Part shown: positions 38,285-63,928 of the stretch, piece after piece
Layout of the letters: each line of letters opens with the position of its first letter
Numbering within the stretch: the first letter of the stretch is position 1
IMG/VR virus record: IMGVR_UViG_3300021431_000002
DNA length: 64,000 nucleotides
Direction: 5' to 3' (one strand)
From: a virus
Lineage: Duplodnaviria; Heunggongvirae; Uroviricota; Caudoviricetes
Translations under genes and position numbers: made by a program
Notes under the pieces: generated by a model
Databases searched by the model: none
The model's input: only the letters and a program-made list of their open reading frames with translations
What the model was told of the DNA's origin: nothing

Positions 38285-38356
38285 GTAAAAAAGTGGAGGC
38301 TGTGGGATTCGAACCCCTCTGTGACAGTGCAGATGTCAAGTGCTAGCCTTTACACT
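38285..38356 (-). tRNA. tRNA-Ala(UGC)-like with a G3:U70 pair and a weak T-stem
   Basis: Acceptor GGGGGCT/AGCCTCC. Anticodon arm TGACA-TCTGCAC-TGTCA. T-arm AGGGG-TTCGAAT-CCCAC has two mismatches. Confidence 0.4.
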
Positions 38357-38520
38357 ACAGCCCCCGTTTGTTAGTTTTTATACAGAACTAACAAACTGTT
38401 GCGAAAACAATGAAGATTCTCAAGATTGTTTACAGGATATTAGAGACTATTCATTTCATTGTTTCATTTGTCACCCATTATGGAGTCGAACCATAAAATA
38501 CCACTTGGGTATTGGAGAAT

Positions 38521-38847
38521 TCAAAGTATCTCCACAACTTTTCCGTAGATTTGGTTTCTACCTACCCATCCGTTCATATGTCCGTGATTGTTACCAATAA
38601 GATATTCACTATCATTTTTAATTGCATGGATTAGGTGCAGATAATGATGACCTCTAACTTTGCAAAGAACAATATTTTTCTTTTCTAGTTTTGTGTCATC
38701 TTTTACTGGTTCACATATAACCGCTTGTCTTGATTTAAGAATAGGGGCCATAGAGTTACCAATACCAGTTACTTTACACGTCTCACCTCCTCTGAGGTGA
38801 TTGCAAGTTTCTTGATTTTCGAAACCGCTATAAGTAAATTCTCTCAT
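38521..38847 (-). CDS. S24 (LexA/UmuD-like) peptidase domain protein
   Basis: GIGNSMAPIL matches the GDSM catalytic Ser motif. C-terminal region is lysine-containing. Confidence 0.5.
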   Translation of the reverse strand: MREFTYSGFENQETCNHLRGGETCKVTGIGNSMAPILKSRQAVICEPVKDDTKLEKKNIVLCKVRGHHYLHLIHAIKNDSEYLIGNNHGHMNGWVGRNQIYGKVVEIL

Positions 38848-38863
38848 ATGTTAATTGTTTAAG

Positions 38864-38973
38864 TGGAGTATTGGAGATTCGAACTCCAAGAGGTCTTATG
38901 TTTCCCGCCTCTCGTATGGTCTTCTTATGCATGAAACCGACCAGCAGGTCACCACCCAACGTGTTTATACCCC
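38864..38973 (-). tRNA. 110-nt tRNA-like gene with an internal insert (palindrome TTATGCATAA)
   Basis: Acceptor GGGGTAT/ATACTCC spans 110 nt. T-arm TGGAG-TTCGAAT-CTCCA. Confidence 0.3.
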
Positions 38974-40185
38974 ATGAGAATTACTTATTGCAGGGACTGA
39001 CGGATTCGAACCGCCATCGTTTATTAACAGTTAAAGGCACACTCTGTTCCGAGGTCGAGAGTGCTTTATTCCTTAAAGCGCAACAAATTACTTTACCATT
39101 AAGCTAAATCCCTATATAAATACAAAAGACTGAGAATGTTGTCTTATTGTTAATGCCATTTTACAAGCGTTGGAACTTGCTATTCACACGTCACCTTACG
39201 ATGAACGTAGACATCATGCACGGAAGTCTTGAGAAGACAACCAAGAATCTTACTAGTTTAAACCTTGCGGTGCAGCATCATAGCTTTCAGTTCTTCGCCA
39301 AGCTCTTGCGGATTCATAGGATGCCTCCTATTAACTCAGACGAGTACTTTTACACGCTCATTGAATTCCTTGCGAGTCCTCAATGTCTCAATATTTCATG
39401 AGAATAAGTGCATTTTAGCTGCCTAGTGTCGCACACTTTTGCTTAAATTGATTTTTGAATCATATTTATGTTCCGTAGGCGGTTTGGAAGACGAGGTGCG
39501 ACTAAGGACATCTGTAACTTTTGGCTACAGCCCATCCAATCGCCTCCCTGTGCTAGCTCACCACAAGCTATTCACTATTATACACCATCACCTCATATGA
39601 GTTCTTACACATTTCTATGTAAGACTAGTGCATAACTGAGTACAACACGCCAACTGGTGATTATTGCATCATACTCCATACAGTAATCTATCGTGTCACC
39701 ACTCATTCAAAGATTCCTCACCCTTGAAAATATACAACTTTGGTGTTACCCACATTGTATACCGTACTGTATGCTTTTCAGTGAAATACATGAGAGTTTC
39801 TCATATATCTGCAACGTTTACCGCTAGTACACGTCACATTTATCCCATCACTGGATTATCCTTCCATCTGGCTACGAAAGCTAGCCATTAGCCTCATATC
39901 TTTCGCAAGATATTTCCTCATGGAAATTGGCTTATTTCTTGAGTTTTTCATTCGTTTTCAGTTTATTATAATAGGTAAACTGCTTCCTCTTTAGAGGTGG
40001 GTTCATATCCCAAGCTCCTATTTTTTAGCCCTACATCGAATTTTTTTACCCAATACTTACTTTTTTCTAGTACACGTTCTCTAGAATATGGTTCCCGAAG
40101 TTACCATTGCTATGGATTGTTTAACCACATAAAACCCATTTTTACCGTTGTCTACGGCACGAAAAGGCATATCTCGTTGGTTAGA

Positions 40186-40320
40186 GCAGATTTGCACTGC
40201 TGAAGCTTCCGAAGAAACACATCAAGCACGAACTTGATGCCCATTTGTCTACATCGTCATTGCTGACGTTCTCCTCTGGTACTAACCAAAAGGTGGTTTT
40301 TTGACTTGTCCACCACAAGG
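40186..40320. repeat. about 135-bp direct repeat, copy 1 (copy 2 at 40481..40620)
   Basis: gatttgcact..gaag..tccgaaga..cacatcaagcacgaacttgatgcccatttgtctacatcgtcattgctgacgttctcctctggta..ccaaaaggtggtttttt. Contains the CATCAAG/CTTGATG hairpin. Confidence 0.7.
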
Positions 40321-40480
40321 TATAGTGTGTAGTATTGTAAAGGCTAATTCATTTTGCAGAACTAATTTAATGGTAAAGGACATCTGCTATGTTTCATACA
40401 GTTGTGTGTTTGTCGCAACCTCACTTTCCTCGCCAACCTTTACTGCCGATTGCACCTGAGCGTTTATACTACATTTGTTG

Positions 40481-40620
40481 GTAGAGCTAGATTTGCACTA
40501 GCGAAGACTCCGAAGAGCCACATCAAGCACGAACTTGATGCCCATTTGTCTACATCGTCATTGCTGACGTTCTCCTCTGGTATCTACCAAAAGGTGGTTT
40601 TTTAACTTGCCCACCACAAG
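40481..40620. repeat. about 135-bp direct repeat, copy 2
   Basis: See 40186..40320. Confidence 0.7.
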
Positions 40621-40625
40621 AATAG

Positions 40626-40698
40626 TTGCGGCAGTAGGAGTCGAACCCACTGTTACTAGGTTATGAGCCTAGTGTGTAAACCGTTTCACTCTGCCACG
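40626..40698 (-). tRNA. tRNA(CAU), Met or Ile2 type, with C1:A72
   Basis: Acceptor CGTGGCA/TGCCGCA. Anticodon arm CTAGG-CTCATAA-CCTAG. T-arm GTGGG-TTCGACT-CCTAC. Confidence 0.6.
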
Positions 40699-41452: not shown

Positions 41453-41965
41453 AACTAAATTGTTTTTTTACTTTAAAAATAATCAGCTACACGAACCTCT
41501 TCAATGTACTTATGAAAGATTCCCTTCCATACATGTTATACAGATTAACGCATGACTTATATCCTAATATAGCCTAACTTTACTGTAAAAGTTTACTTCA
41601 TCATCCAACCCTGACTGATTATTTAGTGGACTTGCGCAGAGTCGAACTGCGGTCCAAACAACCATTCCATAAGAAATTATACAAGCTTTGATTTGGAAAG
41701 TTGACAGCAAACGCTGCCCTCACCGCTACCTTATTTTGCGAAAACAAGGAAAACTATACAAAGATGACTAAAGAATAATGCTAGGGTGTTCTGTTCCTAA
41801 GAGCCTAGCCTCTCGGCTTACATTACGCAGCTATAGCGTACTCGTAAGCAGGAGAATCAACATTCTCGCCAGTTATATTTTTTGCTATTGAAGTGTATGC
41901 CCACTGCTTGTTTCTTACCAAATGCATTGCTGTCAAATCCATTACAAGCCCATGATAAAAAATTG

Positions 41966-42846: not shown

Positions 42847-42925
42847 AGTGCTTGTGATAGGATTTGAACCTACTGTACCCCACTATAAGATGGCGTGTGT
42901 CTTCCAATATATCACCCCTCAAGCA
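42847..42925 (-). tRNA. tRNA, anticodon unresolved (loop CTTATA)
   Basis: Acceptor GCTTGAG/CACAAGC. T-arm GTAGG-TTCAAAT-CCTAT. Confidence 0.35.
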
Positions 42926-43273: not shown

Positions 43274-43294
43274 AACATTTTTTTTATGAAAAAG

Positions 43295-43365
43295 TAGGGT
43301 ATGACGGAATCGAACCGCCCTTCTTAGGATGTAAGCCTAATGTCCTTCCGATGAACGAATACCCT
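43295..43365 (-). tRNA. tRNA-Val(UAC)
   Basis: Acceptor AGGGTAT/ATACCCT. Anticodon arm TTAGG-CTTACAT-CCTAA. T-arm GGCGG-TTCGATT-CCGTC. Confidence 0.75.
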
Positions 43366-47129: not shown

Positions 47130-47425
47130 CCAAATTCATTAACTTTTTTTTAGAAAAAAAGGGTACATTAAACCAACATTTCAACCCCTCCAAATGTCAT
47201 AGCTAAAAATGCGGAGGGGGTAGGAATCGAACCTACGTTACACAAATTAACAGTCTGCTTGAAAAAAATAATTTTGCTGTGTGTACCCACTAAATATGTT
47301 TCCAAAGTAACCTTCCCTGACATCGAACCTTTGGCACATTATTACAGACTAATGCGTTCTGTTCTAGATTCCTCACCGTATAAAAATGCATCTGTATACC
47401 TAATATGCGGCTTCTCCTAGTATCG

Positions 47426-47694: not shown

Positions 47695-47766
47695 TGCGCC
47701 CAGAGGATTCTGCCACCTCGACTCCTAGTTTAAAAGACTAGTGCTCTACTTCTGAGCTATGAGCGC
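47695..47766 (-). tRNA. tRNA-Lys(UUU) paralog with a non-canonical T-loop (GGCAGAA)
   Basis: Acceptor GCGCTCA/TGGGCGC. D-arm GCTC-AGAAGTA-GAGC. Anticodon arm CTAGT-CTTTTAA-ACTAG. Confidence 0.45.
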
Positions 47767-48724: not shown

Positions 48725-49152
48725 ATGATTGACATAATTTTTTTATGCCAAGTTACACTCCGTCAAGTTTATCCAATTTATTTTCTACTCTCCTATATAC
48801 GCAGAAGAGAAGCCCAGTCAATGGTGAATCCAAGTTCATCCCAACGGTGCTGAATGCTCTCACGTATCTGTTTTTGTGCGTTGTACTCGATATTACCAAC
48901 TACACCACTTGATAAAAATTCTTTCATAAATACTTCTGTCATACTCTACCTCTTTGTTTTAATGAAATTAAATAAATTAGATGTTGCCTACCTACACGCA
49001 TTATACTCGCTCCCAATCTCTATTTTACTAGAAGGTGAATTAGTACTGCCCTTTCAGCCCTTCACATTTCCTTTTTTCTTCCTCGATAGGACCAACATCT
49101 ACGTCTTTTGTTCGCTCAATTAAGAACAGCCCAGAGAACTAACTGGGAAATG

Positions 49153-49239
49153 CGGAGGGTAGTGGATTCGAACCACTGGTACCATTGAAGGTACACCTCT
49201 TTAGCAGAGAGGCGGTATAAGCCACTCACCCAACCCTCC
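49153..49239 (-). tRNA. tRNA-Ser(GCU), class II
   Basis: Acceptor GGAGGGT/ACCCTCC plus G73. D-stem GGT/ACC. Anticodon arm CCTCT-CTGCTAA-AGAGG. Variable hairpin GTACC-TTCAAT-GGTAC. T-arm AGTGG-TTCGAAT-CCACT. Confidence 0.85.
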
Positions 49240-49251
49240 TTATTATTGTAG

Positions 49252-49325
49252 TAGTGATGGTAGGACTTGAACCTACGACCTTCATCTTATCAGGATGACA
49301 ATCTGACCAACTGATATACACCACT
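49252..49325 (-). tRNA. tRNA-Ile(GAU), second copy with a different acceptor stem
   Basis: Acceptor AGTGGTG/CATCACT. The body is identical to the copy at 41966 (TCATC-CTGATAA-GATGA). Confidence 0.7.
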
Positions 49326-50173: not shown

Positions 50174-51088
50174 TCATTGATTAATACTACTCAATATATG
50201 TTCTTTCCAGTAATTACGTCTTGTACTATTTTTGTTTTTAGATTTAAAAGTGTCTAGTTGACTATCACAGTTAGGGCATATCATCCTTAAATTTTCTCTT
50301 TTGTTGTTTGACGCATCACCATCAATATGGTCTAATACAAACACTAACGGTTTACCATTATGTTCTGGTTTACATCCGCATATTGCACAAACACCACCTT
50401 GCTCAGACATAAATTGTTCTCTTACAAAGCCTCTAGGCGTGTAATTTCCTCTACAATATTTTTCATTGTTCTCTATAAAATCTTTATATCTATCTTCTTT
50501 TAGTTTGTTTGATGAACATTCATTCGAACAGAATCTAGCTTTAAGATTTTTTGTTTGAAATGGTTTACCACAGAATTCACAAATTTTAGTTAGTATTTGT
50601 TTACTTCTACAATTACCTTTTCTTTGTTTGTCGTATAAAACTTTTCTACATTCATCACTACAATACTTTGTATTCTTTCCTTCTAGTTCTTTTCCACAAA
50701 CAACACAATATCTTTTAGGGTGTTCTACTTTTTTCGTAGATTCTTTTCTAAGTGCATTAGCAACCCTTTCATAAACGGATTTATCTCTATGTTCATTGTT
50801 ATACTTAGCTGAACAAGCTGAACAACAAAAATCCTTGCCCCATTTACTAGTAATTTCTTTACCGCATTGTTTGCAATATCTAATTGGTTTCTTTCGTCTC
50901 TCTTTATAAACAGACAAATCAAATCCAACTGACAATGCAATTTCTTTCAAGTATTCAGAACCTTGTTTATTATCACTAATTCCAAAATATACGTGTGCTT
51001 GATTTTTACTAGTAAAGCCATCAAGTCTTTCAAAGACCTCTTTCTTTTTCTCTTCGGTACTAATGTCAATAATTTTTCTTTTTCTCAT
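50174..51088 (-). CDS. HNH endonuclease with multiple N-terminal zinc-ribbon repeats
   Basis: C-terminal VLDHIDGDASNNKRENLRMICPNCDSQ HNH motif. Repeated C..C...C..C modules. Confidence 0.7.
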   Translation of the reverse strand: MRKRKIIDISTEEKKKEVFERLDGFTSKNQAHVYFGISDNKQGSEYLKEIALSVGFDLSVYKERRKKPIRYCKQCGKEITSKWGKDFCCSACSAKYNNEHRDKSVYERVANALRKESTKKVEHPKRYCVVCGKELEGKNTKYCSDECRKVLYDKQRKGNCRSKQILTKICEFCGKPFQTKNLKARFCSNECSSNKLKEDRYKDFIENNEKYCRGNYTPRGFVREQFMSEQGGVCAICGCKPEHNGKPLVFVLDHIDGDASNNKRENLRMICPNCDSQLDTFKSKNKNSTRRNYWKEHILSSINQ

Positions 51089-51264: not shown

Positions 51265-51277
51265 TTTTTCTACCTTG

Positions 51278-51350: not shown

Positions 51351-51527
51351 TACTGCCTCATCACTATCGTAGATGAAAGGCTTGCACACGACTAGGTAAA
51401 ATGACTGCTACCTTGAACGGACGTATGGCTAACGTTGTGGGTTACTTCGTCCCACTTCACAGTTTAACAACCCTAGTCACCCATATGTACATCTTTGGAT
51501 GTTGTTTTAGGCCCACGTCTGGGATTG

Positions 51528-51600
51528 CTGGTCCACTGGGACTCGAACCCAGCCTCGCAGATTAACAGTCTGCCGTGCTAACCACTATCACTATAGACCA
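51528..51600 (-). tRNA. tRNA-Asn(GUU)
   Basis: Acceptor TGGTCTA/TGGACCA. Anticodon arm GCAGA-CTGTTAA-TCTGC. T-arm CTGGG-TTCGAGT-CCCAG. Confidence 0.75.
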
Positions 51601-51607
51601 ATATTTG

Positions 51608-51679
51608 CTGGGAAGGAGAATTTCGAAATCTCGACCTGATGATTAACAGTCATCTGCTCTGCCTCTGAGCTACTACCCA
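51608..51679 (-). tRNA. tRNA-Asn(GUU) paralog with an aberrant T-arm
   Basis: D-arm GCTC-AGAGGCA-GAGC. Anticodon arm GATGA-CTGTTAA-TCATC. T-region GAGA-TTTCGAAAT-TCTC. Confidence 0.5.
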
Positions 51680-51831: not shown

Positions 51832-51940
51832 GGATGCAATAGGATTCGAACCTATGATTTAATTACCATCGTCATGGGTGTAACGCCCCCCATCGCGCAA
51901 CTCAGATGGTCACTCCCCAGAGGAGTCCTTACACGCATCC
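51832..51940 (-). tRNA. 109-nt tRNA-like gene with an unresolved internal region
   Basis: Acceptor GGATGCG/TGCATCC spans 109 nt. T-arm ATAGG-TTCGAAT-CCTAT. Confidence 0.3.
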
Positions 51941-52353: not shown

Positions 52354-52359
52354 TTTTTG

Positions 52360-52442
52360 AGCTGGAGACAGGATTCGAACCTGCGAGGGCTTTCGCCTTT
52401 GGGTTACAAAGCCAACCTATTCAACCACTCTAGCACTCCAGC
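52360..52442 (-). tRNA. class-II tRNA with an unresolved anticodon (Tyr- or Leu-like body)
   Basis: Acceptor GCTGGAG/CTCCAGC. D-stem CTA/TAG. Variable hairpin GGC-GAAA-GCC. T-arm GCAGG-TTCGAAT-CCTGT. Confidence 0.5.
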
Positions 52443-52627: not shown

Positions 52628-52656
52628 TGGGGAGGGGTGGACTCGAACCACCATTA
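52628..52656 (-). other. tRNA 3' half (T-arm plus 3' acceptor) directly downstream of the HNH gene
   Basis: GGTGG-TTCGAGT-CCACC followed by CCTCCCC. The matching 5' piece GGGGAGGTAGCAAAGATGG lies at 53233-53251, beyond the HNH gene. Confidence 0.45.
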
Positions 52657-52659
52657 CCC

Positions 52660-53136
52660 TTATGTTTTATTTTTACCACAATATGTTTCTGTTTGAGAAT
52701 GGCAGTTAGGGCATAATAGTCTTAAATTTTCTATCCTATTATCTCTATTATTGCCGTTAATGTGGTCTAATTGTAAAACTATTTTTTTACCCAACCATTC
52801 ATTAATACCACATATTGCACATTTATATTCTATTAAATTTGACTTTAGAATTCTTAGTTTAAGACGAGTCATATTTGTATATATACTATCTTTTACTAAA
52901 ATTTTTTCTAAAGGAAATGTTTCATTTTTGGCTAAACCATTAGATTTACCTAAAAAATGAGAAAAACTAATATTATTCTCTCTAAGATATTTTTTCAACG
53001 GTTGATACGAGTTTCCTCTATTCGCAGTATAGCCTAGTTTTCTCATAACTTCAGCGAATGTTTTGCTATTTTGCACAATATTAGATAACTCTTCTTTATC
53101 AATTTTTTTATAATAACATTCCATTATTATTTTCAA
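52660..53136 (-). CDS. HNH homing-type endonuclease, inserted between the two halves of a Tyr-like tRNA
   Basis: LQLDHINGNNRDNRIENLRLLCPNCH HNH motif. Flanked by tRNA half sequences. Confidence 0.75.
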   Translation of the reverse strand: MKIIMECYYKKIDKEELSNIVQNSKTFAEVMRKLGYTANRGNSYQPLKKYLRENNISFSHFLGKSNGLAKNETFPLEKILVKDSIYTNMTRLKLRILKSNLIEYKCAICGINEWLGKKIVLQLDHINGNNRDNRIENLRLLCPNCHSQTETYCGKNKT

Positions 53137-53232
53137 TTAACTATGTGGGGGTTCCAGTTGCCGCCACTGGTCCTATTGATTTTCAGTCAATCGCTTCTAC
53201 TGAGTTAGCTTAACCCCCAAATTATTAAACCA

Positions 53233-53251
53233 TCTTTGCTACCTCCCCAAT
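53233..53251 (-). other. tRNA 5' fragment (acceptor plus start of the D-arm) upstream of the HNH gene
   Basis: GGGGAGG-TA-GCAAAGATGG. A near-identical motif occurs at 60071-60090. Confidence 0.4.
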
Positions 53252-54484: not shown

Positions 54485-54503
54485 ATTTGGAAATTTGATT
54501 TTG

Positions 54504-54592
54504 TATAGAGGGTGGGATTCGAACCCACAAGTACCTTTCGATACACTAGTTTCGTAGACTAGGACGGTCATCCAGTTACGTTTTACCCCTAC
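54504..54592 (-). tRNA. tRNA-Arg(ACG) with an extended variable arm (89 nt)
   Basis: Acceptor GTAGGGG/CCTCTAT. D-loop AACTGGATGA. Anticodon arm CTAGT-CTACGAA-ACTAG. Variable TGTATCGAAAGGTACT. T-arm GTGGG-TTCGAAT-CCCAC. Confidence 0.55.
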
Positions 54593-54795
54593 ATAAAGGA
54601 ACGGTCAATTTATTGCCTTGACTCGGCATTCGCTCCGAAGAGCATAGATAAGTGCCTCGCAATGATTATTTAACGCTTCTCTTATCCTTCGTCTAGTCAG
54701 ATTAATAATTAAAAATGTTTTGTAAATTAATATCAAACTGCTGTACGCTCCTACTAACACGCAAATAGATGCAACTAGGCATTCTAGATACGTTG

Positions 54796-54884
54796 TGGCC
54801 CTAGAGGGATTCGAACCCCCAACTACCTCTCAGTAGAACTGTTTAGAAGACAGTGACGGTCATCCAATTACGTTTTATAGGGTC
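54796..54884 (-). tRNA. tRNA-Arg(UCU) with an extended variable arm. Paralog of 54504
   Basis: Same D-arm (TAAAACGTAATTGGATGACCGTC). Anticodon arm ACTGT-CTTCTAA-ACAGT. T-arm GGGGG-TTCGAAT-CCCTC. Confidence 0.55.
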
Positions 54885-54975: not shown

Positions 54976-55500
54976 ACGAAGGCACCCGTATCCTTCTCTT
55001 AATGGGTTATTTATCACATACACATCAGTTGTTGTGGTCTAGAATACATTATTACCATATTGAAATTCTTGCAAGTAAAGAACATCAGATAACACTATTT
55101 TAGGACTGTCAGCCTCTCTCGATGACTGTATACGGGGTTGTCATCCCAAATAGGTAATGAGCCTATCGTACCATTTCTTTTGTTCTTAATTTCAACTTAG
55201 GTATCTCCTATATGCTCTCTACACATTTATGAATGTAGCATACTTAATCATTAACTTTTCTGAAGCGTATTTTCATTCTCATTAGAGATTTTTTCGCCTC
55301 TACATTCAATTTAGCACGGTATTATCCTTACACGTTATTGGTTAGTGTGACGTTCTCTTAGTGCGCTGTGCATAACCTTTGAACTATAGTAGCACGTGCC
55401 GTTTTCCAAGAAGGACTTCCACCGTTTTAGGGAGATTCTACATAGGGATTTCTCGCCTATGCATCCAATTTGGTTTAATCATTTTCGGATGTATTTATTG

Positions 55501-55581
55501 TGATGGGACTGGGACTCGAACCCAGATTCCTTTCGGAGCCAGTTTAGAAGACTGGTGCATTATCCATCCTGCCCTCCCACC
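55501..55581 (-). tRNA. tRNA-Arg(UCU)-like with a 3-bp D-stem and an extended variable arm
   Basis: Acceptor GGTGGGA/TCCCATC. D-arm GCA-GGATGGATAA-TGC. Anticodon arm CCAGT-CTTCTAA-ACTGG. T-arm CTGGG-TTCGAGT-CCCAG. Confidence 0.5.
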
Positions 55582-56833: not shown

Positions 56834-56860
56834 ATAAAAAAAAACAGGAAACGTGTTTTT

Positions 56861-56925: not shown

Positions 56926-57070
56926 ATACGGTAACGGTTTTCAGAACAAATATTGCTGCTTGTTTCCTTTGTAAAAAAACTACTGAGTAATTGTAGGGGC
57001 GATGGGTAATGCTCCCACTATCTCATGCTTATAAGGCATGTGCTTTTACTGTCTAAGCTACACCCCAATC

Positions 57071-57295: not shown

Positions 57296-57437
57296 AGAGC
57301 CGTGTGCTGGATTCGAACCAACGTTAGTACTTAAACACCCCTTTACGCATATGCTGGTACCAAATTGGGGTCGCCTTGTTTGCGCTGTGCTGTCCATCTT
57401 ACACTAACACGGCATGGTGCAACTTTCTAGTCTAATG

Positions 57438-57714: not shown

Positions 57715-57756
57715 AGTTTATCCATTTAAAAAAAGGAAACGTTTGTTGTTTATTTT

Positions 57757-57880
57757 TAGTGCTCTATCCAACTGAGCTACCGCCACATTATCGTTATAAA
57801 ATTGAGTGGCGGACAGGACTCGAACCTGCGACCCCTAGCTTGGAATGCTTTTTAAACGATATACATTGCTGTACGTTTCC
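57757..57880 (-). other. circularly permuted-looking tRNA module. The T-arm plus 3' acceptor (57806-57830) is followed 15 nt downstream by a canonical 5' acceptor plus D-arm (57757-57790)
   Basis: Minus strand reads ...GCAGG-TTCGAGT-CCTGT CCGCCAC T [15 nt] GTGGCGG TA GCTC AGTTGGATA GAGC A. The two acceptor strands are perfectly complementary. Confidence 0.4.
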
Positions 57881-59605: not shown

Positions 59606-59874
59606 AATATTATCATAAAAACGGATACTTTTGTTTTAATATACCAATACCCACGAATGGGTGCTTAAACCACATGTTTAGCTTGGATTCGAACCAAGAA
59701 ATTGTAACAAAGTTACATTGCTGTAAGTATCCTTAGTTGATGGTGTGGGATTCGAACCCACGTTGCCGATAGGCTGCGTTCCTACAGAATTTATTCACCT
59801 ATCCATAGGATTCACTACTCTCTAGTTTCTTTTAGTACCGCCTTGCGCAATCCTCTTACTGAACCACCAATTTG

Positions 59875-59947: not shown

Positions 59948-60070
59948 ATAAAACGATGCAAGTGATAAGCCTCGCAGTTTTTTTATTTAACGTGGAGAAC
60001 CTTGGATACTTCCTGCGTTACCAAACTCCATTCCTACCCTATGATTTTTGGAAACATTTTTTTCCATCTT

Positions 60071-60130
60071 AGCTACCTCCCCAAGTTTAATAATTTGTGG
60101 GGAGGGTTGGACTCGAACCAACGACCCTTA
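60071..60130 (-). other. Tyr-like tRNA 3' half followed by a 5' fragment (permuted arrangement). A repeat of the pieces flanking the HNH gene at 52628/53245
   Basis: GTTGG-TTCGAGT-CCAAC CCTCCCC A [16 nt] GGGGAGG TA GCTAAGATGG. Confidence 0.4.
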
Positions 60131-60373
60131 AATTATTAGTTTAATGCTATACCCTTTAATACTTGCTGTATGTTTCCTTGTATCATTTAATCATATAAAC
60201 CTCCGTGTGTTGGTTCATATTCTCCACCACTTTTATTAGTTACAGCATCCACCATGTGTTGGTTCGTACTCACCACCTCCGTAGAGGTATGGGTCTTCAT
60301 CATCGTGCATCATGAGGTTGCTATAATCATTCTTATCAACTGCTGCCATAATAATTCTTTTTTAAATTACTTT

Positions 60374-60608: not shown

Positions 60609-60630
60609 AATATTCTCTTTTACTTTTTGG

Positions 60631-60704
60631 GGTGTTCGACAGGACTCGAACCTGCGTAAACAAGTGCCACAAACTTGCGCCTAAACCACTCGGCCACGAA
60701 CACC
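60631..60704 (-). tRNA. tRNA-His(GUG) with an encoded G-1:C73 pair
   Basis: G-1 plus acceptor GTGTTCG/CGAACAC plus C73. D-arm GCC-GAGTGGTTTA-GGC. Anticodon arm CAAGT-TTGTGGC-ACTTG. T-arm GCAGG-TTCGAGT-CCTGT. Confidence 0.8.
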
Positions 60705-61773: not shown

Positions 61774-61793
61774 AATATTACAAACAAATTATG

Positions 61794-61867
61794 GGGGTAG
61801 TGTTGGAATCAAACCAACCTAAACAAGTGCCACAAACTTGCGCCTAAATCACTCTGCCAACTATCCC
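61794..61867 (-). tRNA. tRNA-His(GUG) paralog with acceptor mismatches and a TTTGATT T-loop. Possibly a decaying copy
   Basis: Same D-loop and anticodon arm as 60631. Acceptor GGATAGT/ACTACCC with G-1:C73. Confidence 0.45.
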
Positions 61868-61963
61868 ATTTAAAAAACTTGGACAATTTACCGCCACTGA
61901 TGGATTGGGCTTGGCTTTTCAAGGTCACGCTTCCAAGTTATATGTCGGAATCATTAAAACTAA

Positions 61964-62036
61964 GGTGGTGCAGGATTCGAACCTACGTTCTCTTGGTAAA
62001 ATCCAAGGCTTTAAACCACTAAGCTAACCGTCTGGA
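61964..62036 (-). tRNA. tRNA-like gene with a 6-nt anticodon loop (CTTGG-ATTTTA-CCAAG)
   Basis: D-arm GCTT-AGTGGTTTA-AAGC. T-arm GTAGG-TTCGAAT-CCTGC. Acceptor has two mismatches. Confidence 0.3.
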
Positions 62037-62068
62037 GTTTATATCAATTGCTGTTAGATTCCTTTTTG

Positions 62069-62141
62069 TCAGGGTACTTGGACTCGAACCAAGAACAGCG
62101 TGTCTCCAAAGCACGTCGTCTACCTATTGACGTACACCCTG
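62069..62141 (-). tRNA. tRNA with a Gln-like acceptor. Anticodon loop reads TTTGGAG (UGG) or CTTTGGA (UUG) depending on register
   Basis: Acceptor CAGGGTG/TACCCTG. D-arm CGTC-AATAGGTAGA-GACG. T-arm CTTGG-TTCGAGT-CCAAG. Confidence 0.45.
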
Positions 62142-62237
62142 AGTTAAAATGCCAACACTCTAGAATTCTTGCATTATATCCTCTATCGTCTTATGCTGCT
62201 CTTAGAGAGGTTGCCTAAAGACTTGCGTTAGCATTTG

Positions 62238-62323
62238 TCGGAGGGGAGGGATTCGAACCCCCAGTGTTTCTGATGTGCTGGTTTTACAGACCAGTGCTAA
62301 TCCGCCATCTTAGCAGCCCTCCG
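62238..62323 (-). tRNA. tRNA-Tyr(GUA), class II
   Basis: Acceptor CGGAGGG/CCCTCCG plus A73. D-stem GCT/AGC. Anticodon arm CTGGT-CTGTAAA-ACCAG. Long variable arm. T-arm GGGGG-TTCGAAT-CCCTC. Confidence 0.7.
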
Positions 62324-62395
62324 ATTAAGCATAGGTTTCTCAACCACAATCCTTTCGAATTGACCACAGTGGTGAACTATGTATGCTTTAGCGTT

Positions 62396-62833
62396 TCATT
62401 TAAATTTTCCTAATCTTATACCTTCAACAAGGTAGTTATACAATATTTCCCAATCTGTTTCGGCTTCAAATCCGAACTTATCATCTATCCCTACATTGAA
62501 ATATGTTTTCTCATCGAAGCAAGACAGCGATGTGTTTTCTGTTTCAGTGTTTCGGTTAATATAATCAAACCTAATACCATTAGTTTTAAAATATTCAACA
62601 TAATCATTTATAACATTTTTATACGTTGATGTCCATAGTATGAGAGAAATCTGCTGGGCATGACTCATAATTTCCAATGCTTCTTTCGCAAAAGGATACC
62701 ACTTATACTCTTCTTTCTCGTGATAGCAAGCCTCAAATACAGTGTCGTGAATATCAACAAGCACATATATTTTCTCCCAATTACGGTCTTTCATTCGTTT
62801 GAATGCGCCATCGAAACTTTTTTCTATATTCAT
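62396..62833 (-). CDS. possible HAD-like phosphatase
   Basis: VLVDIHDTVF resembles the DxDxT motif I. Confidence 0.25.
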   Translation of the reverse strand: MNIEKSFDGAFKRMKDRNWEKIYVLVDIHDTVFEACYHEKEEYKWYPFAKEALEIMSHAQQISLILWTSTYKNVINDYVEYFKTNGIRFDYINRNTETENTSLSCFDEKTYFNVGIDDKFGFEAETDWEILYNYLVEGIRLGKFK

Positions 62834-63484
62834 AACGGCATATGTTTTTTAAATAAAGGGAAGTAGTTTCAAATCAAGCAAACAAACCAAAGTACCCTCT
62901 ATGGTTGTTATGACATTCTCATATGCCTTGGGTAATCTGCATCAAATGACATATCTCGAAAGACTTGCTTCCCAACAAGGCTTACATAGTTTGAGTGACG
63001 CTTTGCGACTCTCAGTGACTAATAAGCTCCATTCCTTAAATGGGTAAACCACACCACAAATAGATAGTCAATCATTGAGATTCGTGAAATGTGGGCTTGC
63101 ACCTTCTATACTACTCTCTAGACTCCTCATATAGACCCTTATACCCATTTTGTCAGCCAAGGCAGATTCGAACTACCACCGTTATTTCTAACGCCACCAA
63201 GCCTTCCCATATGCACTATAGCTTGAAACCTCCTAGGCAAATACTAGGTGTGCTACCATTACACCATTGACTGAAATTTGCTATGTTGGATGGATTCGAA
63301 CCATCGTAGAAAACGAAAGATTGTTTTCGAGTCATATCTAACGTGGGTCTCAATGTTTAAAGTCTCTGCTAGCAACGACTCCCTCGTTTCATTGACGGTT
63401 TCTCTCATTTGTCCCAGACATGGCATTAAAACTTGCAATTTTTTTCAAACACTCCATGTCCATTCCTCTGATACAACATAGTTG

Positions 63485-63557
63485 TTGGGATAGAGGGATT
63501 CGAACCCCCACAAACCAAGTGCCAGAAACTTGTGCGCTACCGTTACGCCATACCCCA
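63485..63557 (-). tRNA. tRNA-Gln(CUG)
   Basis: Acceptor TGGGGTA/TATCCCA. D-arm GCG-TAACGGTAG-CGC. Anticodon arm CAAGT-TTCTGGC-ACTTG. T-arm GGGGG-TTCGAAT-CCCTC. Confidence 0.75.
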
Positions 63558-63844
63558 ATGAAAACTGAAACCCTAGCTAGTAACGTATTTTAACAGCATC
63601 CTTACCTATTCTCTCAACCTCTCAGTGACGTTGGGCAATTTAGTCAATCAACGTGGTTTCAGTTTATACTGAAAGTTGAAATTCTCATGAGTATAGTCTA
63701 TCATGTCATTCACTCAAGCTTTACTGAGCCGAATCGTAGTGCTATAATTTCAACTTTATATTATAAGGGAACATTTAACTGTACTTTTAAAACCCAAATT
63801 TAATTACTTGTTAATTCAAAATACTTGCTGTGTGTTCCCACTTG

Positions 63845-63928
63845 TACCCCCAGTAGGAGTCGAACCTACAATGTCCTTTCGAACTCCACATCCTTAGTGT
63901 GGCGGCTATACCATTCGCCTATAGGGGC
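63845..63928 (-). tRNA. class-II Leu-like tRNA with anticodon loop CTAAGGA (AAG, A34)
   Basis: Acceptor GCCCCTA/TGGGGGT. D-stem GGC/GCC. Anticodon arm CCACA-CTAAGGA-TGTGG. Long variable arm. T-arm GTAGG-TTCGACT-CCTAC. Confidence 0.5.

What the first reader, a model, noticed from the sequence alone, without database searches (positions are those of the whole stretch)
38285..63928. Very large minus-strand tRNA array with paralogs, decaying copies and tRNA halves
About 26 kb is dominated by tRNA genes. Hand-folded isotypes are Ala x2, Arg (ACG, UCU x2, CCU), Asn x2, Asp, Cys, Gln, Gly x2, His x2, Ile x2, Leu (UAG and an AAG-like), Lys x3, Met/fMet/Ile2 (CAU x3), Pro, Ser x2, Thr, Trp, Tyr and Val, plus at least 10 T-arm or acceptor fragments. 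All are on the minus strand. Bacteroidetes promoters are interspersed, and there is a terminator at 23661. Several isotypes occur as pairs, with one canonical copy and one with a degenerate T-loop (Lys 47530/47695, Asn 51608, His 61794). This points to ongoing duplication and decay.
Basis: seen in the sequence. Interest (0 to 1): 0.6.

Follow-up and report, generated by a model that had tools for sequence, protein, structure and literature searches.

The report
Megaphage tRNA island with tRNA-mimic RNAs
This 26-kb stretch of a very large phage genome does carry about 33 tRNA genes, but most of the apparently broken copies are conserved structured RNAs (a GOLLD-class giant RNA, a tmRNA and a widespread unannotated family of tRNA mimics), and the array changes mainly by swapping whole tRNA genes rather than by decay.

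Summary
In 38285-63928, ARAGORN and Rfam together tRNA-shaped genes plus a tmRNA, all on the minus strand. There are 53 canonical T-arms on the minus strand of the window and none on the plus strand. Bacteroidota-type promoters are interspersed.

The interpretation of duplication and decay is mostly not supported.
- The 38.9-40.6 kb gap holds a divergent GOLLD-class RNA. It is conserved in at least 9 related contigs of 100-410 kb (one is only 13 kb), lies downstream of tRNA-Met, and ends in a structured tRNA-like unit.
- Most "T-arm or acceptor fragments" belong to helix-closed modules (GGAAAC-NN-ACAGCAA...GUUUCC). Many enclose a circularly permuted tRNA mimic with YrlA architecture. There are 10 in the window and 47 strong matches in large-phage loci, with heavy covariation. 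The family is absent from Rfam 15.
- "Degenerate T-loop" copies keep intact stems through compensatory changes. The Asn form is conserved in relatives.

Real flux exists. A sibling contig that is 99-99.7% identical carries different alleles of single tRNA genes (Leu-UAG, Trp, Ser-UGA), and some differences lie next to HNH endonuclease genes.

The kind is known: a huge-phage tRNA island with GOLLD. The module family and the tRNAs with expanded variable arms are the new part.

The parts
63844..63928 (-). tRNA-Leu(AAG), class II
   Evidence: ARAGORN; Rfam 53.2 bits
63767..63839 (-). short ACAGCAA helix module (GGGAAC...GTTCCC)
   Evidence: CM R1 41.4 bits, E 8e-6
63484..63557 (-). tRNA-Gln(CUG)
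63282..63480 (-). expanded tRNA-like unit, 199 nt: perfect 7-bp acceptor stem and T-arm, packed 3 nt after tRNA-Gln
63154..63273 (-). expanded tRNA-like unit, 120 nt: acceptor, D-arm, 5-bp stem with UAUUUGC loop, about 52-nt variable region, T-arm
62237..62323 (-). tRNA-Tyr(GUA), class II
   Evidence: parse
62068..62141 (-). tRNA-Pro(UGG)
61947..62062 (-). ACAGCAA module (GGAATC...GATTCC) enclosing a standard-order tRNA-like element (61962-62033) with a 6-nt loop AUUUUA and a mismatched acceptor stem
   Evidence: (compensatory GGAATC/GATTCC versus GGAGTC/GACTCC)
61793..61866 (-). tRNA-His(GUG) variant: T-loop UUUGAUU, A3.C70
   Evidence: paralog of 60628 at 80% identity
60835..61773 (-). ORF, 312 aa, endonuclease/exonuclease/phosphatase family; used as anchor for finding relatives
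60628..60703 (-). tRNA-His(GUG); the only tRNA among the 53 canonical T-arm elements with an encoded CCA
60050..60177 (-). ACAGCAA module with a circularly permuted tRNA mimic: anticodon-like arm, T-arm, CCUCCCC, loop, GGGGAGG, D-arm 5' part
   Evidence: CM R1 103.7 bits; 79% identical to L002
59874..59947 (-). tRNA-Pro(UGG)
59738..59869 (-). expanded tRNA-like unit, 132 nt
59623..59732 (-). ACAGCAA module (GGATAC...GTATCC) containing a T-arm only
   Evidence: CM R1 44.9 bits
57886..57958 (-). tRNA-Gly(UCC)
57735..57880 (-). ACAGCAA module with a permuted tRNA mimic (T-arm, CCGCCAC, 19-nt loop, GUGGCGG, full D-arm). Best YrlA-like hit. Absent from the sibling contig.
   Evidence: Rfam YrlA 41.4 bits (below gathering 69); CM R1 141 bits
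57437..57510 (-). tRNA-Gly(GCC)
57299..57413 (-). expanded tRNA-like unit, 115 nt (ARAGORN intron mode calls it 'Cys')
56993..57067 (-). tRNA-Ile(UAU) with non-canonical T-loop AGCAUUA; replaced in the sibling contig
   Evidence: Rfam 50.6 bits
56845..56969 (-). module variant (GCAGCAA instead of ACAGCAA) with a T-arm; lies just upstream of tRNA-Leu(UAG), as in L017
   Evidence: CM R1 65.2 bits, E 7e-11; 88% identical to L017
56750..56833 (-). tRNA-Leu(UAG). 100% identical to the allele of distant L017; 25 of 84 positions differ from the sibling contig.
55500..55581 (-). tRNA-Arg(UCU) with a GAAA-capped variable-arm hairpin
54795..54884 (-). tRNA-Arg(UCU) paralog with a long variable arm and one acceptor mismatch
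   Evidence: family D20, 79% to 54503; Rfam 27.7 bits (below gathering 29)
54503..54592 (-). tRNA-Arg(ACG) with a long variable arm and unusual D region; 87% identical in L009
53146..53218 (-). tRNA-Phe(GAA) with non-canonical T-loop GGCGGCA
   Evidence: Rfam 40.6 bits; parse
52629..53248 (-). tRNA-like gene split in its D/anticodon region (5' piece GGGGAGG-UA-GCAA..., 3' piece T-arm-CCUCCCC) by a cassette holding tRNA-Phe and an HNH endonuclease ORF (52660-53136). A promoter lies at 53264-53296.
52359..52442 (-). tRNA-Thr(UGU) with a GAAA-capped variable-arm hairpin; 97% identical in L028 and 88% in L017
52280..52353 (-). tRNA-Asp(GUC)
51832..51940 (-). expanded tRNA-like unit, 109 nt
51607..51679 (-). 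tRNA-Asn(GUU) of the U53.U61 scaffold (GAGAU-UUCGAAA-UUCUC, D-loop without GG)
51527..51600 (-). tRNA-Asn(GUU), canonical
51277..51350 (-). tRNA-Ala(UGC)-like with an enlarged anticodon loop
51175..51263 (-). tRNA-Ser(UGA); a different allele in the sibling contig
50174..51088 (-). HNH endonuclease ORF, 304 aa; absent from the sibling contig
49251..49325 (-). tRNA-Ile(GAU)
49152..49239 (-). tRNA-Ser(GCU)
47695..47766 (-). tRNA-Lys(UUU) variant: T-loop GGCAGAA, U53.U61
   Evidence: Rfam 50.6 bits
47611..47686 (-). tRNA-Lys(UUU), canonical T-arm; 97-98% identical in L017
47530..47601 (-). tRNA-Lys(CUU) variant: T-loop UGCAAAA, U53.U61
   Evidence: Rfam 48.5 bits
47425..47497 (-). tRNA-Thr(CGU)
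47161..47288 (-). ACAGCAA module (GGGUAC...GUACCC) with a permuted tRNA-Asn-like mimic; 85% identical in L028
   Evidence: CM R1 108 bits
45136..45212 (-). tRNA-Trp(CCA) with an aberrant D region. 100% identical in L018 and 96-98% in L017; 31 of 77 positions differ from the sibling, whose allele has a long variable arm.
43294..43365 (-). tRNA-Val(UAC)
42848..42924 (-). tRNA-like element with an 8-nt (alternatively 6-nt) anticodon loop UCUUAUAG; 96-97% identical in L017 and L026
42773..42844 (-). short ACAGCAA module
   Evidence: CM R1 39.7 bits
41965..42039 (-). tRNA-Ile(GAU)
41626..41951 (-). tmRNA, tag GENVDSPAYEYAIAA
   Evidence: ARAGORN; Rfam 78.8 bits (above gathering 47); conserved in L018 and L022
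40717..40781 (-). short ACAGCAA module between the promoter (40805-40837) and tRNA-Met; the same order is kept in L017, L018, L022, L024, L025, L027 and L028
40627..40697 (-). tRNA-Met(CAU) heading the GOLLD unit
39127..40620 (-). GOLLD-class RNA. Two 132-nt tRNA-like modules (40620-40489 and 40319-40188, 91% identical), a variable 5' region, and the conserved 3' domain at 39127-39548.
   Evidence: Rfam RF02032 85.7 bits, E 3.5e-22, full model (below gathering 150); relatives; 36 of 105 pairs with compensatory changes; repeat D13
38992..39113 (-). tRNA-like unit 13 nt after the GOLLD 3' domain. The anticodon arm is replaced by a conserved branched 63-nt domain.
   Evidence: Rfam tRNA 42.1 bits; 73-95% identical in 8 relatives with compensatory changes
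38865..38973 (-). expanded tRNA-like unit, 109 nt; 81% identical in L025
38293..38365 (-). tRNA-Ala(UGC): G3.U70 present, T-stem only 3 bp
   Evidence: Rfam 35.8 bits
36607..36698 (-). amber-suppressor tRNA(CUA) with a 22-nt variable arm (outside the stated range, same array)
23698..23792 (-). ACAGCAA module (AGAAGC...GCTTCT) with a T-arm, directly after the long-variable-arm tRNA(CAU) at 23795-23880 (outside the stated range)
4625..6031 (-). CCA-adding enzyme (tRNA nucleotidyltransferase), needed because 52 of the 53 canonical T-arm elements lack an encoded CCA
   Evidence: Pfam; PHROG
1074..1979 (-). RNA ligase

Best explanation
The region is the tRNA and non-coding-RNA island of a very large phage with Bacteroidota-type promoters. 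Its relatives are contigs of about 100-410 kb.

How it works (inferred except where noted). Repeated -33 TTTG / -7 TAnnTTTG promoters drive co-directional polycistronic transcripts. In these, tRNAs, tRNA-like units and small ORFs lie head to tail. Host RNase P and RNase Z would cut at the tRNA-shaped units, which would also release the intervening structured RNAs. The phage's own CCA-adding enzyme would complete the 3' ends, because 52 of the 53 canonical T-arm elements end in N73-C-W-A rather than CCA.

Contents (shown):
(a) about 33 decoding tRNAs in the stated range, skewed to the phage's A/U-rich preferred codons;
(b) a tmRNA and an amber suppressor;
(c) a divergent GOLLD-class RNA transcribed behind tRNA-Met and ending in a tRNA-like unit;
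(d) ten copies of a helix-closed module (GGAAAC-NN-ACAGCAA...GUUUCC, followed by a U-rich tail) whose cargo ranges from a hairpin to a circularly permuted tRNA mimic of YrlA architecture;
(e) tRNAs with non-standard bodies, either hairpins inserted in the variable loop or a U53.U61 elbow variant.

Conclusion. The odd-looking elements are maintained structures, not debris. The array evolves mainly by three routes: replacement of single tRNA genes through recombination with co-circulating relatives, HNH homing-endonuclease insertions, and duplication followed by anticodon change.

Status of the claims. Shown here: presence, structure, conservation, covariation and allele swapping. Inferred: the processing route, codon supply, and any anti-defence or decoy role.
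For: - tRNA and T-arm counts and strand bias.
- Promoters.
- Phage context (CCA-adding enzyme, RNA ligase, HNH endonucleases, PHROG hits).
- Relatives on contigs of 308-413 kb.
- GOLLD: Rfam E-values of 1e-18 to 1e-22 in four phages. A core of about 900 nt is 78-87% identical in eight of the relatives, while the anchor protein used to retrieve L017 and L022 is only 44-51% identical. 36 of 105 pairs show compensatory changes. The position downstream of tRNA-Met matches published GOLLD (PMC12286853).
- Module family: 9 closed ACAGCA sites in the window against 0.9 expected. 63 members were found in the window plus relatives, 16 of them permuted and each with a different complementary acceptor-like helix. 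CM R1 finds 47 full-length hits with E below 1e-6, including in loci not used to build it. 93.6% of cells are paired against 69.2% in shuffles and 42-52% in slid controls, and 22 of 23 pairs show compensatory changes. The exact-pattern scan hits 42 viral stretches, almost all on contigs of 95-412 kb with many same-strand T-arms.
- Variant tRNAs: intact stems and compensatory changes among paralogs; the scaffold is conserved in L009, L022 and L028; the long-variable-arm Thr, Arg and suppressor tRNAs are conserved.
- Cassette swapping: 20 of 22 canonical RNA genes are identical to the sibling, but Leu-UAG differs at 25 of 84 positions and Trp at 31 of 77. Both alleles are well formed, and the window's alleles are identical to those of distant phages.
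- HNH-linked insertions and deletions.
- Codon match.
Against: - There are no expression, processing or aminoacylation data.
- High identity of some odd elements to distant phages (42848, Leu, Trp, 61962) can reflect recent transfer rather than purifying selection, so function rests on covariation only where diverged copies exist.
- Several expanded tRNA-like units (63282, 63154, 59738, 57299, 51832) could be compared only with a near-identical sibling.
- The T-loops of Lys 47530 and 47695 deviate from the UUCGAAA of their homologues in relatives and could be partly impaired.
- A few genes look damaged: the split gene at 53248/52629, the 3-bp T-stem of Ala 38293, and the acceptor mismatch in Arg 54795.
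- GOLLD and YrlA matches are below Rfam gathering scores.
- The host phylum is inferred only from promoter motifs.
Confidence: 0.75

Rival explanations
1. The array grows by tandem duplication, and the non-canonical copies, T-arm pieces and acceptor pieces are pseudogenes and tRNA halves in the course of decay.
For: Paralog families exist. Some elements look damaged: a tRNA-like gene is split by an HNH cassette, Ala 38293 has a 3-bp T-stem, and Arg 54795 and His 61793 have acceptor mismatches. The T-loops of Lys 47530 and 47695 differ from the consensus of their homologues. Gene content differs between relatives.
Against: The stems of the 'degenerate' copies are intact and show compensatory changes. 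The 'fragments' form a family with strong covariation and conserved flanks in many unrelated large-phage contigs. The tRNA-like unit after GOLLD is conserved with compensatory changes in 8 relatives. Short-term change is allele replacement, not point decay: 20 of 22 canonical RNA genes have no differences from the sibling.
Confidence: 0.12
2. The expanded tRNA-like units (109-199 nt, and the 600-nt candidates) are intron-containing tRNA genes. They would be spliced into ordinary decoding tRNAs, as with group I introns in bacterial tRNA anticodon loops.
For: ARAGORN in intron mode calls several of them: Asn i(32,53) at 38990, Cys i(34,24) at 57297, Leu i(32,37) at 63152, Thr i(33,23) at 30450, and Pro i(34,531) at 52627. 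Acceptor stems are perfect. One 'insert' carries an HNH gene.
Against: No group I or group II intron model matches at E of 1 or below across 22-64 kb. The inserts are too short for self-splicing introns, and from established knowledge bacteria lack the bulge-helix-bulge splicing endonuclease. In 38992-39113 the insert replaces the anticodon arm and is itself a conserved, covarying branched structure. The ARAGORN intron positions do not restore a credible anticodon stem.
Confidence: 0.07
3. The ACAGCAA helix modules are not RNAs with a function of their own. They would be DNA-level or transcription-level signals: recombination or homing sites that delimit tRNA cassettes (attC-like), or unusual intrinsic terminators or processing spacers.
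For: The outer helix ends in ...AAC / GTT..., as attC sites do. 63% of modules are followed by at least 5 T in the next 10 nt. 42% of modules with a downstream tRNA end 15 nt or less before it. The array does evolve by cassette replacement.
Against: Replaced segments (Trp, Leu) are not bounded by modules. No integron integrase was seen. The cargo is a covarying tRNA-shaped fold with T-arm, acceptor-like helix and D-arm, which a DNA site or a simple terminator does not need. The sequences do not fit the attC core RYYYAAC/GTTRRRY. A terminator or processing role for the outer helix is still compatible with the main explanation.
Confidence: 0.15
4. The window is not phage. It would be a horizontally acquired chromosomal or plasmid tRNA array of a bacterium, like the Mycobacterium tRNA arrays that carry GOLLD and HNH genes.
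For: Such bacterial arrays with GOLLD plus an HNH gene are documented (PMC6582537). Similar modules occur on contigs binned into bacterial MAGs (L039-L041).
Against: Near-identical and related sequences are IMG/VR viral contigs of up to 413 kb. All genes run in one direction with repeated promoters. PHROG hits include tRNA nucleotidyltransferase, RNA ligase, primase/helicase and HNH. There are no ribosomal or housekeeping bacterial genes in 64 kb.
Confidence: 0.04

Closest known systems
tRNA islands of huge phages (Al-Shayeb et al. 2020, 'Clades of huge phages', PMC7162821; the figure of up to about 67 tRNAs plus tmRNAs is from my own knowledge of that paper)
   Same: Dozens of co-oriented tRNA genes, a tmRNA, a suppressor tRNA and tRNA-processing enzymes in genomes of 300-400 kb.
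   Different: Here the island is interleaved with three other classes of structured RNA. Many tRNAs have inserted variable-arm hairpins or an altered elbow. Gene-by-gene allele replacement between near-identical genomes is documented directly.
GOLLD RNA (Rfam RF02032; Weinberg et al. 2009; cryo-EM 14-mer nanocage, PMC12286853) and Mycobacterium tRNA arrays with GOLLD plus an HNH gene (PMC6582537)
   Same: A large RNA in a phage tRNA island, downstream of tRNA-Met, with a conserved 3' domain and a variable 5' region, tRNA-like elements within or next to it, and HNH genes nearby. The match covers the full Rfam model, with E-values of 1e-18 to 1e-22.
   Different: It scores 78-86 bits, below the curated gathering score of 150, so it is a divergent subgroup. 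It carries one or two 132-nt tRNA-like 5' modules and a fixed 3' tRNA-like unit whose anticodon arm is replaced by a branched domain. Oligomerisation is untested.
YrlA / bacterial Y RNA-like RNAs (Rfam RF02553; Chen et al. 2014, PMC4201824)
   Same: The 5' and 3' ends pair. The interior is a tRNA mimic in the order T-arm, acceptor-like stem-loop, D-arm. A 7-bp acceptor-like helix is present, as in M. smegmatis YrlA, which RNase P cleaves. YrlA RNAs are known from 22 phages.
   Different: The Ro60-binding motif GNCGAAN0-1G is absent and is replaced by an invariant ACAGCAA. No TROVE/Ro60 gene was detected among the 40 ORFs scanned. There are up to 9-10 copies per island. The cargo varies (hairpin only, T-arm only, permuted mimic, or a complete tRNA). 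The Rfam score of 36-41 bits is below the gathering score of 69.
tRNA regions of T4 and T5 with free-standing homing endonucleases, e.g. T4 SegB (my own knowledge)
   Same: Homing endonuclease genes sit among phage tRNA genes and are associated with preferential inheritance or replacement of neighbouring tRNA genes.
   Different: The endonucleases here are of HNH type, and the array is far larger. Swaps also occur at tRNAs with no adjacent endonuclease (Trp, Leu).
Circularly permuted tRNA genes of Cyanidioschyzon merolae (Soma et al. 2007; my own knowledge)
   Same: The 3' half of a tRNA precedes the 5' half in the gene.
   Different: Those are matured through a circular intermediate into normal tRNAs. 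Here the ends are locked in an outer helix with a conserved motif, and no anticodon arm is rebuilt in most members. They are best read as mimics, not as tRNA precursors.

Membership tests
tRNA (RF00005) | Cloverleaf scoring at or above the Rfam gathering score (29 bits) and/or called by ARAGORN with a 7-nt anticodon loop | tested here: met
   29 Rfam hits and 26 ARAGORN calls in the range, union 32. Exceptions that are tRNA-like only: 61962 (6-nt loop), 42848 (8-nt loop), 38991 (63-nt replacement).
tRNA (RF00005) | Canonical elbow: G18G19 in the D-loop, T54-Psi55-C56 in the T-loop, G53-C61 | tested here: not met
   Not met for Lys 47530, Lys 47695, Asn 51607, Phe 53146 and Ile-UAU 56993. Met for the others.
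tRNA (RF00005) | Aminoacylation and use in decoding | not testable with these tools
   Would need tRNA sequencing or charging assays.
tmRNA (RF00023) | tRNA-like domain plus a tag reading frame, scoring above the gathering score | tested here: met
   78.8 bits against a gathering score of 47; tag GENVDSPAYEYAIAA.
GOLLD RNA (RF02032) | Score at or above the Rfam gathering threshold (150 bits) | tested here: not met
   85.7 bits in the window and 78-86 bits in L017, L018 and L022.
GOLLD RNA (RF02032) | Statistically significant match over the full conserved 3' domain, including signature motifs | tested here: met
   Model positions 1-416 of 416, E 3.5e-22. GGGAGNCG, AAGCAAAAGU and CUCGCAAGG all align.
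GOLLD RNA (RF02032) | Conserved, covarying secondary structure | tested here: met
   10 phages, 105 predicted pairs, 36 with double compensatory changes, and few broken pairs. This used the RNAalifold structure, not the Rfam structure.
GOLLD RNA (RF02032) | Large size with a variable 5' region; encoded in a phage or prophage near tRNAs, often after tRNA-Met | tested here: met
   An ORF-free stretch of 1.5 kb. It lies behind tRNA-Met in all relatives.
GOLLD RNA (RF02032) | Homo-oligomeric (14-mer) nanocage | not testable with these tools
   Needs cryo-EM or native gels.
YrlA / Y RNA-like (RF02553) | tRNA-like core in the order T-arm, acceptor-like stem-loop, D-arm, closed by pairing of the 5' and 3' ends | tested here: met
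   Covariation in all four helices.
YrlA / Y RNA-like (RF02553) | Score at or above the gathering threshold (69 bits) | tested here: not met
   41.4 bits (57728-57853) and 24.4 bits (56838-56941); 36-37 bits in L018 and L022.
YrlA / Y RNA-like (RF02553) | GNCGAAN0-1G motif (Ro60/Rsr-binding region) near the 5' end | tested here: not met
   The 5' region does not align to the model. The consensus here is AAGGAAAC-NN-ACAGCAA. The motif definition is from PMC4201824.
YrlA / Y RNA-like (RF02553) | Ro60 (TROVE-domain) gene within about 4 kb on the same strand | tested here: not met
   No TROVE hit among the 40 ORFs of the window scanned against Pfam. The rest of the genome, which would total about 300-400 kb judging by related contigs, was not available.
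Group I intron in a tRNA gene | Match to the RF00028 core, with the insert at the anticodon loop | tested here: not met
   No intron family at E of 1 or below in 22-64 kb.
Integron attC site (considered for the modules) | RYYYAAC ... GTTRRRY cores and an integron integrase nearby | tested here: not met
   The cores are GGAAAC/GTTTCC (purine-rich left arm). No integrase was found among the scanned ORFs.
Stop-codon-recoded phage (TAG reassigned) | A suppressor tRNA plus in-frame TAG codons in genes | tested here: inconclusive
   tRNA(CUA) is present and conserved. TAG is rare as a stop (4 of 50). Reassigning TAG does not lengthen the ORFs of this window. Late genes are not in the window.

The most novel reading that the evidence does not exclude
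The ACAGCAA helix modules would be a new, widespread class of phage-encoded tRNA-mimic RNAs. They are cut out of tRNA-island transcripts by the tRNA-processing machinery. They would act as decoys or scaffolds for host factors that recognise the tRNA elbow and acceptor, such as tRNA-targeting defence nucleases, RNase P or Z, modification enzymes, or an unknown Ro60-like partner. Together with the tRNAs that have expanded variable arms or an altered elbow, the GOLLD cage RNA, the RNA ligase and the CCA-adding enzyme, the island would then be a counter-defence toolkit that keeps translation running when the host attacks its own tRNA pool.
Probability: 0.2. Interest if true: 0.85.

Novelty: new variant of a known kind. 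Interest (0 to 1): 0.62.

Why it matters
Large tRNA islands in huge phages, and GOLLD RNAs next to them, are already known. The array itself is therefore a new member of a known kind.

What is new:
1. A strongly covarying family of helix-closed modules that is not in Rfam. Many members carry a circularly permuted tRNA mimic. The family recurs up to 9-10 times per island in many unrelated contigs of 95-412 kb. This turns the 'junk' between phage tRNAs into a defined RNA class that can be tested.
2. A divergent GOLLD subgroup with a fixed gene order: promoter, short module, tRNA-Met, tRNA-like module(s), GOLLD, tRNA-like unit. This gives the unsolved question of GOLLD function a conserved operon context.
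3. Direct evidence that single tRNA genes are exchanged as cassettes between co-circulating huge phages.
4. A clade-wide habit of inserting hairpins into the variable loop of tRNAs that are normally class I, including an amber suppressor. This bears on tRNA identity and on evasion of tRNA-targeting defences.

Tried and rejected
- Megablast of 24 kb against INPHARED phages gave only short tRNA matches, so there is no close cultured relative.
- Stop-codon recoding: ORF lengths do not improve when TAG or TGA is reassigned in this window.
- The search for related loci with the 819-aa protein found nothing, because the window extends beyond the IMG/VR sibling contig. With the 250-aa protein it returned only the sibling.
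- ARAGORN long-intron calls (tRNA-Pro with a 531-nt intron; tRNA-Arg with a 352-nt intron) were examined. The first is a tRNA-like gene split by an HNH cassette. The second is two adjacent Arg paralogs.
- I first read the high identity of odd elements to distant phages as purifying selection. I withdrew this after the sibling comparison showed allele swapping (versus 67, 68). Claims of function now rest on compensatory changes.
- The genome-contig scan with the module pattern gave 48 hits against about 34 expected by chance. Only L039, L040 and L041 were real clusters.
- The first MAFFT alignment of 15 permuted modules misregistered the acceptor-like helix. I rebuilt the seed from 8 members with long loops.
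- I checked the Jug phage papers for a link. They contain nothing about tRNAs and report a different GC content, so no membership is claimed.
- An attC-like reading of the modules was rejected (see the rival explanations).
- Literature searches for tRNAs with long variable arms in phages, and for the module motif, found no description. A catalogue of 8,495 IMG/VR candidate RNAs (PMC10690425) might list it without describing it.

Full report
CHECK OF THE OBSERVATION.

ARAGORN finds 31 tRNAs and one tmRNA in the window, all on the minus strand. Of these, 26 tRNAs and the tmRNA lie in 38285-63928. Rfam's tRNA model at gathering score finds 29 in that range, including six that ARAGORN misses. Three more appear at relaxed thresholds.

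A simple census of canonical T-arms gives 53 on the minus strand and none on the plus strand.

- No canonical Cys tRNA was found.
- A Phe-GAA tRNA was overlooked.
- Arg-CCU and two of the CAU tRNAs lie outside the stated range.

'Dominated by tRNA genes' overstates the case. tRNAs cover 10% of the range, all RNA features 24%, and 24 ORFs of at least 60 aa cover 43%. The Bacteroidota-type promoters are real and highly repeated. The terminator near 23661 is also there.

WHAT THE WINDOW IS.

All genes run in one direction, and GC content is about 0.35. The window encodes a CCA-adding enzyme, an RNA ligase, two HNH endonucleases, a primase/helicase-like ATPase and an NAD-salvage-like set of genes. 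No close record exists among deposited phages.

An IMG/VR contig of 95 kb is 99-99.7% identical over 22 kb. More distant relatives with the same gene order are a 308-kb ENA scaffold, a 71-kb NCBI metagenome contig, and IMG/VR contigs of 105-413 kb. This is therefore the RNA island of a huge phage.

A Bacteroidota host is inferred from the -33 TTTG / -7 TAnnTTTG promoters only. The array continues beyond the window end, with Glu-CUC and Arg-UCG in the sibling.

THE GOLLD-CLASS RNA.

The ORF-free stretch at 38.9-40.6 kb matches the full Rfam GOLLD model. The score is 85.7 bits with E 3.5e-22, which is below the curated threshold of 150 bits. The same match is found at the same place in L017, L018 and L022.

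A core of about 900 nt is 78-87% identical in eight of the relatives. By contrast, the anchor protein used to retrieve L017 and L022 is only 44-51% identical. An alignment of the 3' domain from ten phages gives 105 pairs, 36 of them with double compensatory changes.

In every relative where the upstream region was recovered, the unit has the same layout:
1. a promoter;
2. a short ACAGCAA module;
3. tRNA-Met(CAU);
4. one or two 132-nt tRNA-like modules;
5. the GOLLD RNA;
6. 13 nt later, a tRNA-like unit whose anticodon arm is replaced by a conserved, covarying branched domain.

Published work places GOLLD in phage tRNA islands, downstream of tRNA-Met, sometimes with tRNAs in its linker. It also reports tRNA arrays in mycobacteria that contain GOLLD and an HNH gene (PMC12286853 and PMC6582537). 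This part is therefore a divergent member of a known class.

THE 'FRAGMENTS'.

Three unassigned T-arms (60106, 57813, 47220) are followed, after a loop of 16-21 nt, by the exact complement of their 3' acceptor strand and then by a D-arm. This is a circularly permuted tRNA. Each is enclosed by an outer helix whose 5' strand is followed by an invariant ACAGCAA.

Evidence that these modules form a family:
- The window has nine such helix-closed ACAGCA sites against 0.9 expected by chance. A tenth, with GCAGCAA, was found by the covariance model.
- Across the window and its relatives I collected 63 members: 35 short ones with a hairpin cargo, 16 permuted, 5 with a standard-order tRNA-like cargo, and 7 with a T-arm only. 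The permuted ones have acceptor-like helices of entirely different sequence that are always complementary.
- The flanks, which were not part of the search, are conserved: cAAGGAAAC-NN-ACAGCAA ... aAAAAnGUUUCC-G, followed by a U-rich tail.
- A covariance model built from eight members finds 47 full-length matches with E below 1e-6 in 497 kb of large-phage loci, including loci fetched with a different, short-module pattern.
- On 135 distinct rows, 93.6% of cells pair, against 69.2% in shuffles and 42-52% when partners are slid. 22 of 23 pairs show compensatory changes. This alignment is fitted to the model, which favours the structure, but the margin is large.
- The exact-pattern scan hits 42 viral stretches, almost all on contigs of 95-412 kb whose loci are full of same-strand T-arms, with up to nine modules per 12 kb. 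The same scan of 596 Gb of prokaryotic genomes gives about the number of hits expected by chance, plus three real clusters. In one of these a module encloses a bona fide tRNA-Thr.
- Of the modules that have a downstream tRNA, 42% end 15 nt or less before it.

Rfam 15 has no family for these modules. Its YrlA model aligns only to the T-arm, acceptor-like stem-loop and D-arm core, at 41 bits against a threshold of 69. The Ro60-binding motif does not align (motif from PMC4201824). No TROVE protein was found among the 40 ORFs scanned.

The modules therefore resemble YrlA as tRNA mimics, but membership in that family is not established.

THE 'DEGENERATE' COPIES.

Lys-CUU 47530, Lys-UUU 47695 and Asn 51607 are paralogs, 71-83% identical. 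They share a D-loop without GG and a U53.U61 T-stem closure. Their acceptor, anticodon and T stems differ by at least five double compensatory changes, with no broken pair.

The Asn version (GAGAU-UUCGAAA-UUCUC) recurs in Asn, Lys and His tRNAs of L009, L022 and L028. It is a conserved scaffold, not a decaying copy. The T-loops of the two Lys copies do deviate from that scaffold, so some loss of function cannot be excluded for them.

Separately, many tRNAs that are normally class I carry a hairpin in the variable loop, often capped by GAAA. These are Arg CCU, ACG and UCU x2, Thr-UGU, one tRNA-CAU, and the amber suppressor. The Thr, Arg-ACG and suppressor forms are conserved in relatives. In the suppressor, the same tRNA body has a variable loop of 5, 16 or 22 nt in different phages. 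These insertions therefore appear to be tolerated add-ons.

Seven further units of 109-199 nt have perfect 7-bp acceptor stems and T-arms and are packed head to tail with tRNAs. Eight such closures with at most one G-U pair are seen, against about 1.6 expected by my own estimate. Apart from 38992 and 38865, these units could not be tested in diverged relatives.

HOW THE ARRAY CHANGES.

Against the sibling contig there are 22,100 aligned positions and 154 substitutions. Twenty of 22 canonical RNA genes are identical. In contrast, tRNA-Leu(UAG) differs at 25 of 84 positions and tRNA-Trp at 31 of 77. Ile-UAU, Gly-GCC and Ser-UGA are replaced or unalignable.

Both alleles are well formed in each case. 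The window's Leu and Trp alleles are 100% identical to those of L017 and L018 respectively, phages whose proteins are otherwise about 51% and 85% identical. Single tRNA genes are therefore exchanged between co-circulating phages.

Other differences between the window and its sibling:
- The Ser-UGA swap is accompanied by an HNH ORF that the sibling lacks.
- One permuted module is absent from the sibling.
- A tRNA-like gene is split by a cassette made of tRNA-Phe and an HNH ORF.

This finding also means that high identity of an odd element to a distant phage cannot by itself be read as purifying selection.

HOW IT PROBABLY WORKS (inference).

Promoters feed polycistronic transcripts. RNase P and RNase Z excise every tRNA-shaped unit and so also release the modules and the GOLLD unit. 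The phage CCA-adding enzyme completes the 3' ends, since only His 60628 among the 53 canonical T-arm elements encodes CCA, and by my own reading of the list about 41 of the 53 T-arm units end in N73-C-W-A.

The decoding tRNAs match the phage's preferred A/U-ending codons. These include AGA at 48% of Arg codons (two UCU tRNAs), AUA at 34% of Ile codons (UAU plus a likely lysidine CAU tRNA), and AAA at 72% of Lys codons (two UUU tRNAs).

Whether the mimics and the tRNAs with altered bodies serve to evade or absorb host tRNA-targeting defences is a hypothesis, not a result.

VERDICT.

The phage tRNA-array reading is right. The 'decay and halves' reading is mostly wrong. The object is a known kind, a huge-phage tRNA island with GOLLD. 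It contains what appears to be an undescribed, widespread family of helix-closed tRNA-mimic modules, and it shows clear cassette-style exchange of tRNA genes.

Noticed in passing
window 36607-36698 (-): An amber-suppressor tRNA(CUA) with a 22-nt variable arm. The same tRNA body occurs in 6 relatives with variable loops of 5, 16 or 22 nt. TAG is the stop codon of only 4 of 50 ORFs, but reassigning TAG does not lengthen ORFs in this window.
   Followed up: partly
window 52629-53248 (-): A tRNA-like gene (GGGGAGG...CCUCCCC, paralog of the permuted module at 60050-60177) is interrupted by a cassette made of tRNA-Phe(GAA) and an HNH endonuclease ORF. The cassette lies directly behind a promoter at 53264-53296.
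   Followed up: partly
window 40489-40620 and 40188-40319 (-): Two 91%-identical 132-nt units lie upstream of the GOLLD core. Each has an 8-bp acceptor-like helix (UUGGUAGA/UCUACCAA), three hairpins (GCAA and UUCG loops) and a T-arm-like hairpin with loop UGCAAAU. One copy is present in L018 and L022, and two in L017 and L025.
   Followed up: partly
window, all T-arm units (list): By my own reading of the list, about 48 of the 53 units have C after the discriminator and about 41 read N73-C-(A/U)-A. Only tRNA-His 60628-60703 encodes CCA. This is a conserved 3' trailer that may be a processing signal.
   Followed up: no
window 42848-42924 (-): A tRNA-like gene with an 8-nt (or, with an extra U.G pair, 6-nt) anticodon loop UCUUAUAG. 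It is 96-97% identical in L017 and L026. It may be a frameshift-type or non-decoding tRNA.
   Followed up: partly
window 1074-1979, 4625-6031 (-): An RNA ligase and a CCA-adding enzyme are encoded upstream of the array. Together they form a tRNA repair and maturation set.
   Followed up: partly
window 3420-3995, 20758-21363, 34235-34735, 42180-42740 (-): A set of NAD-salvage-like genes is scattered through the island: isochorismatase/nicotinamidase-like, NUDIX, CinA, and a cytidylyltransferase/NMNAT-like gene. CinA, HIT and the NMNAT-like gene are syntenic in L017 and L022.
   Followed up: no
window 46430-46720 (-): A 93-aa ORF (46439-46720) is present in the window but missing from the otherwise 99% identical sibling contig. 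This is another presence/absence difference.
   Followed up: no
window 23795-23880 and 27083-27167 (-): Further tRNAs with a class II-like body outside the stated range: a tRNA(CAU) with a UUCG-capped variable arm, and Arg(CCU) with a GAAA-capped variable arm.
   Followed up: partly
window 38472-38555, 30719-30830, 30452-30561, 31309-31382, 2217-2302 (-): Additional T-arm-bearing tRNA-like elements that were not resolved. Two overlap predicted ORF ends. 31309 is 80% identical in L025 and L029.
   Followed up: no
L017 2701-2780 (+): An 80-nt stretch in the tRNA island of the 308-kb relative matches the archaeal LSU rRNA model at positions 2208-2287 (46.8 bits, E 2e-10).
   Followed up: no
L007 (sibling) tRNA-Trp; L002 7329-7420, 9778-9861, 17046-17129; L022 19154-19236: Relatives carry long-variable-arm versions of Trp, Glu(UUC), His and Cys tRNAs. 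Variable-loop hairpin insertion is therefore a clade-wide habit and not a peculiarity of this genome.
   Followed up: partly
L039 5858-5977 (+), Chroococcidiopsis MAG contig: An ACAGCAA module encloses a bona fide tRNA-Thr(UGU) of 57.5 bits. Next to it lie a permuted-mimic module and two short modules. The family therefore extends beyond the Bacteroidota-type phages.
   Followed up: partly
L022 1-146 (+): A TnpB/Cas12f-like (TNB domain) gene fragment lies at the edge of the tRNA island of a relative.
   Followed up: no
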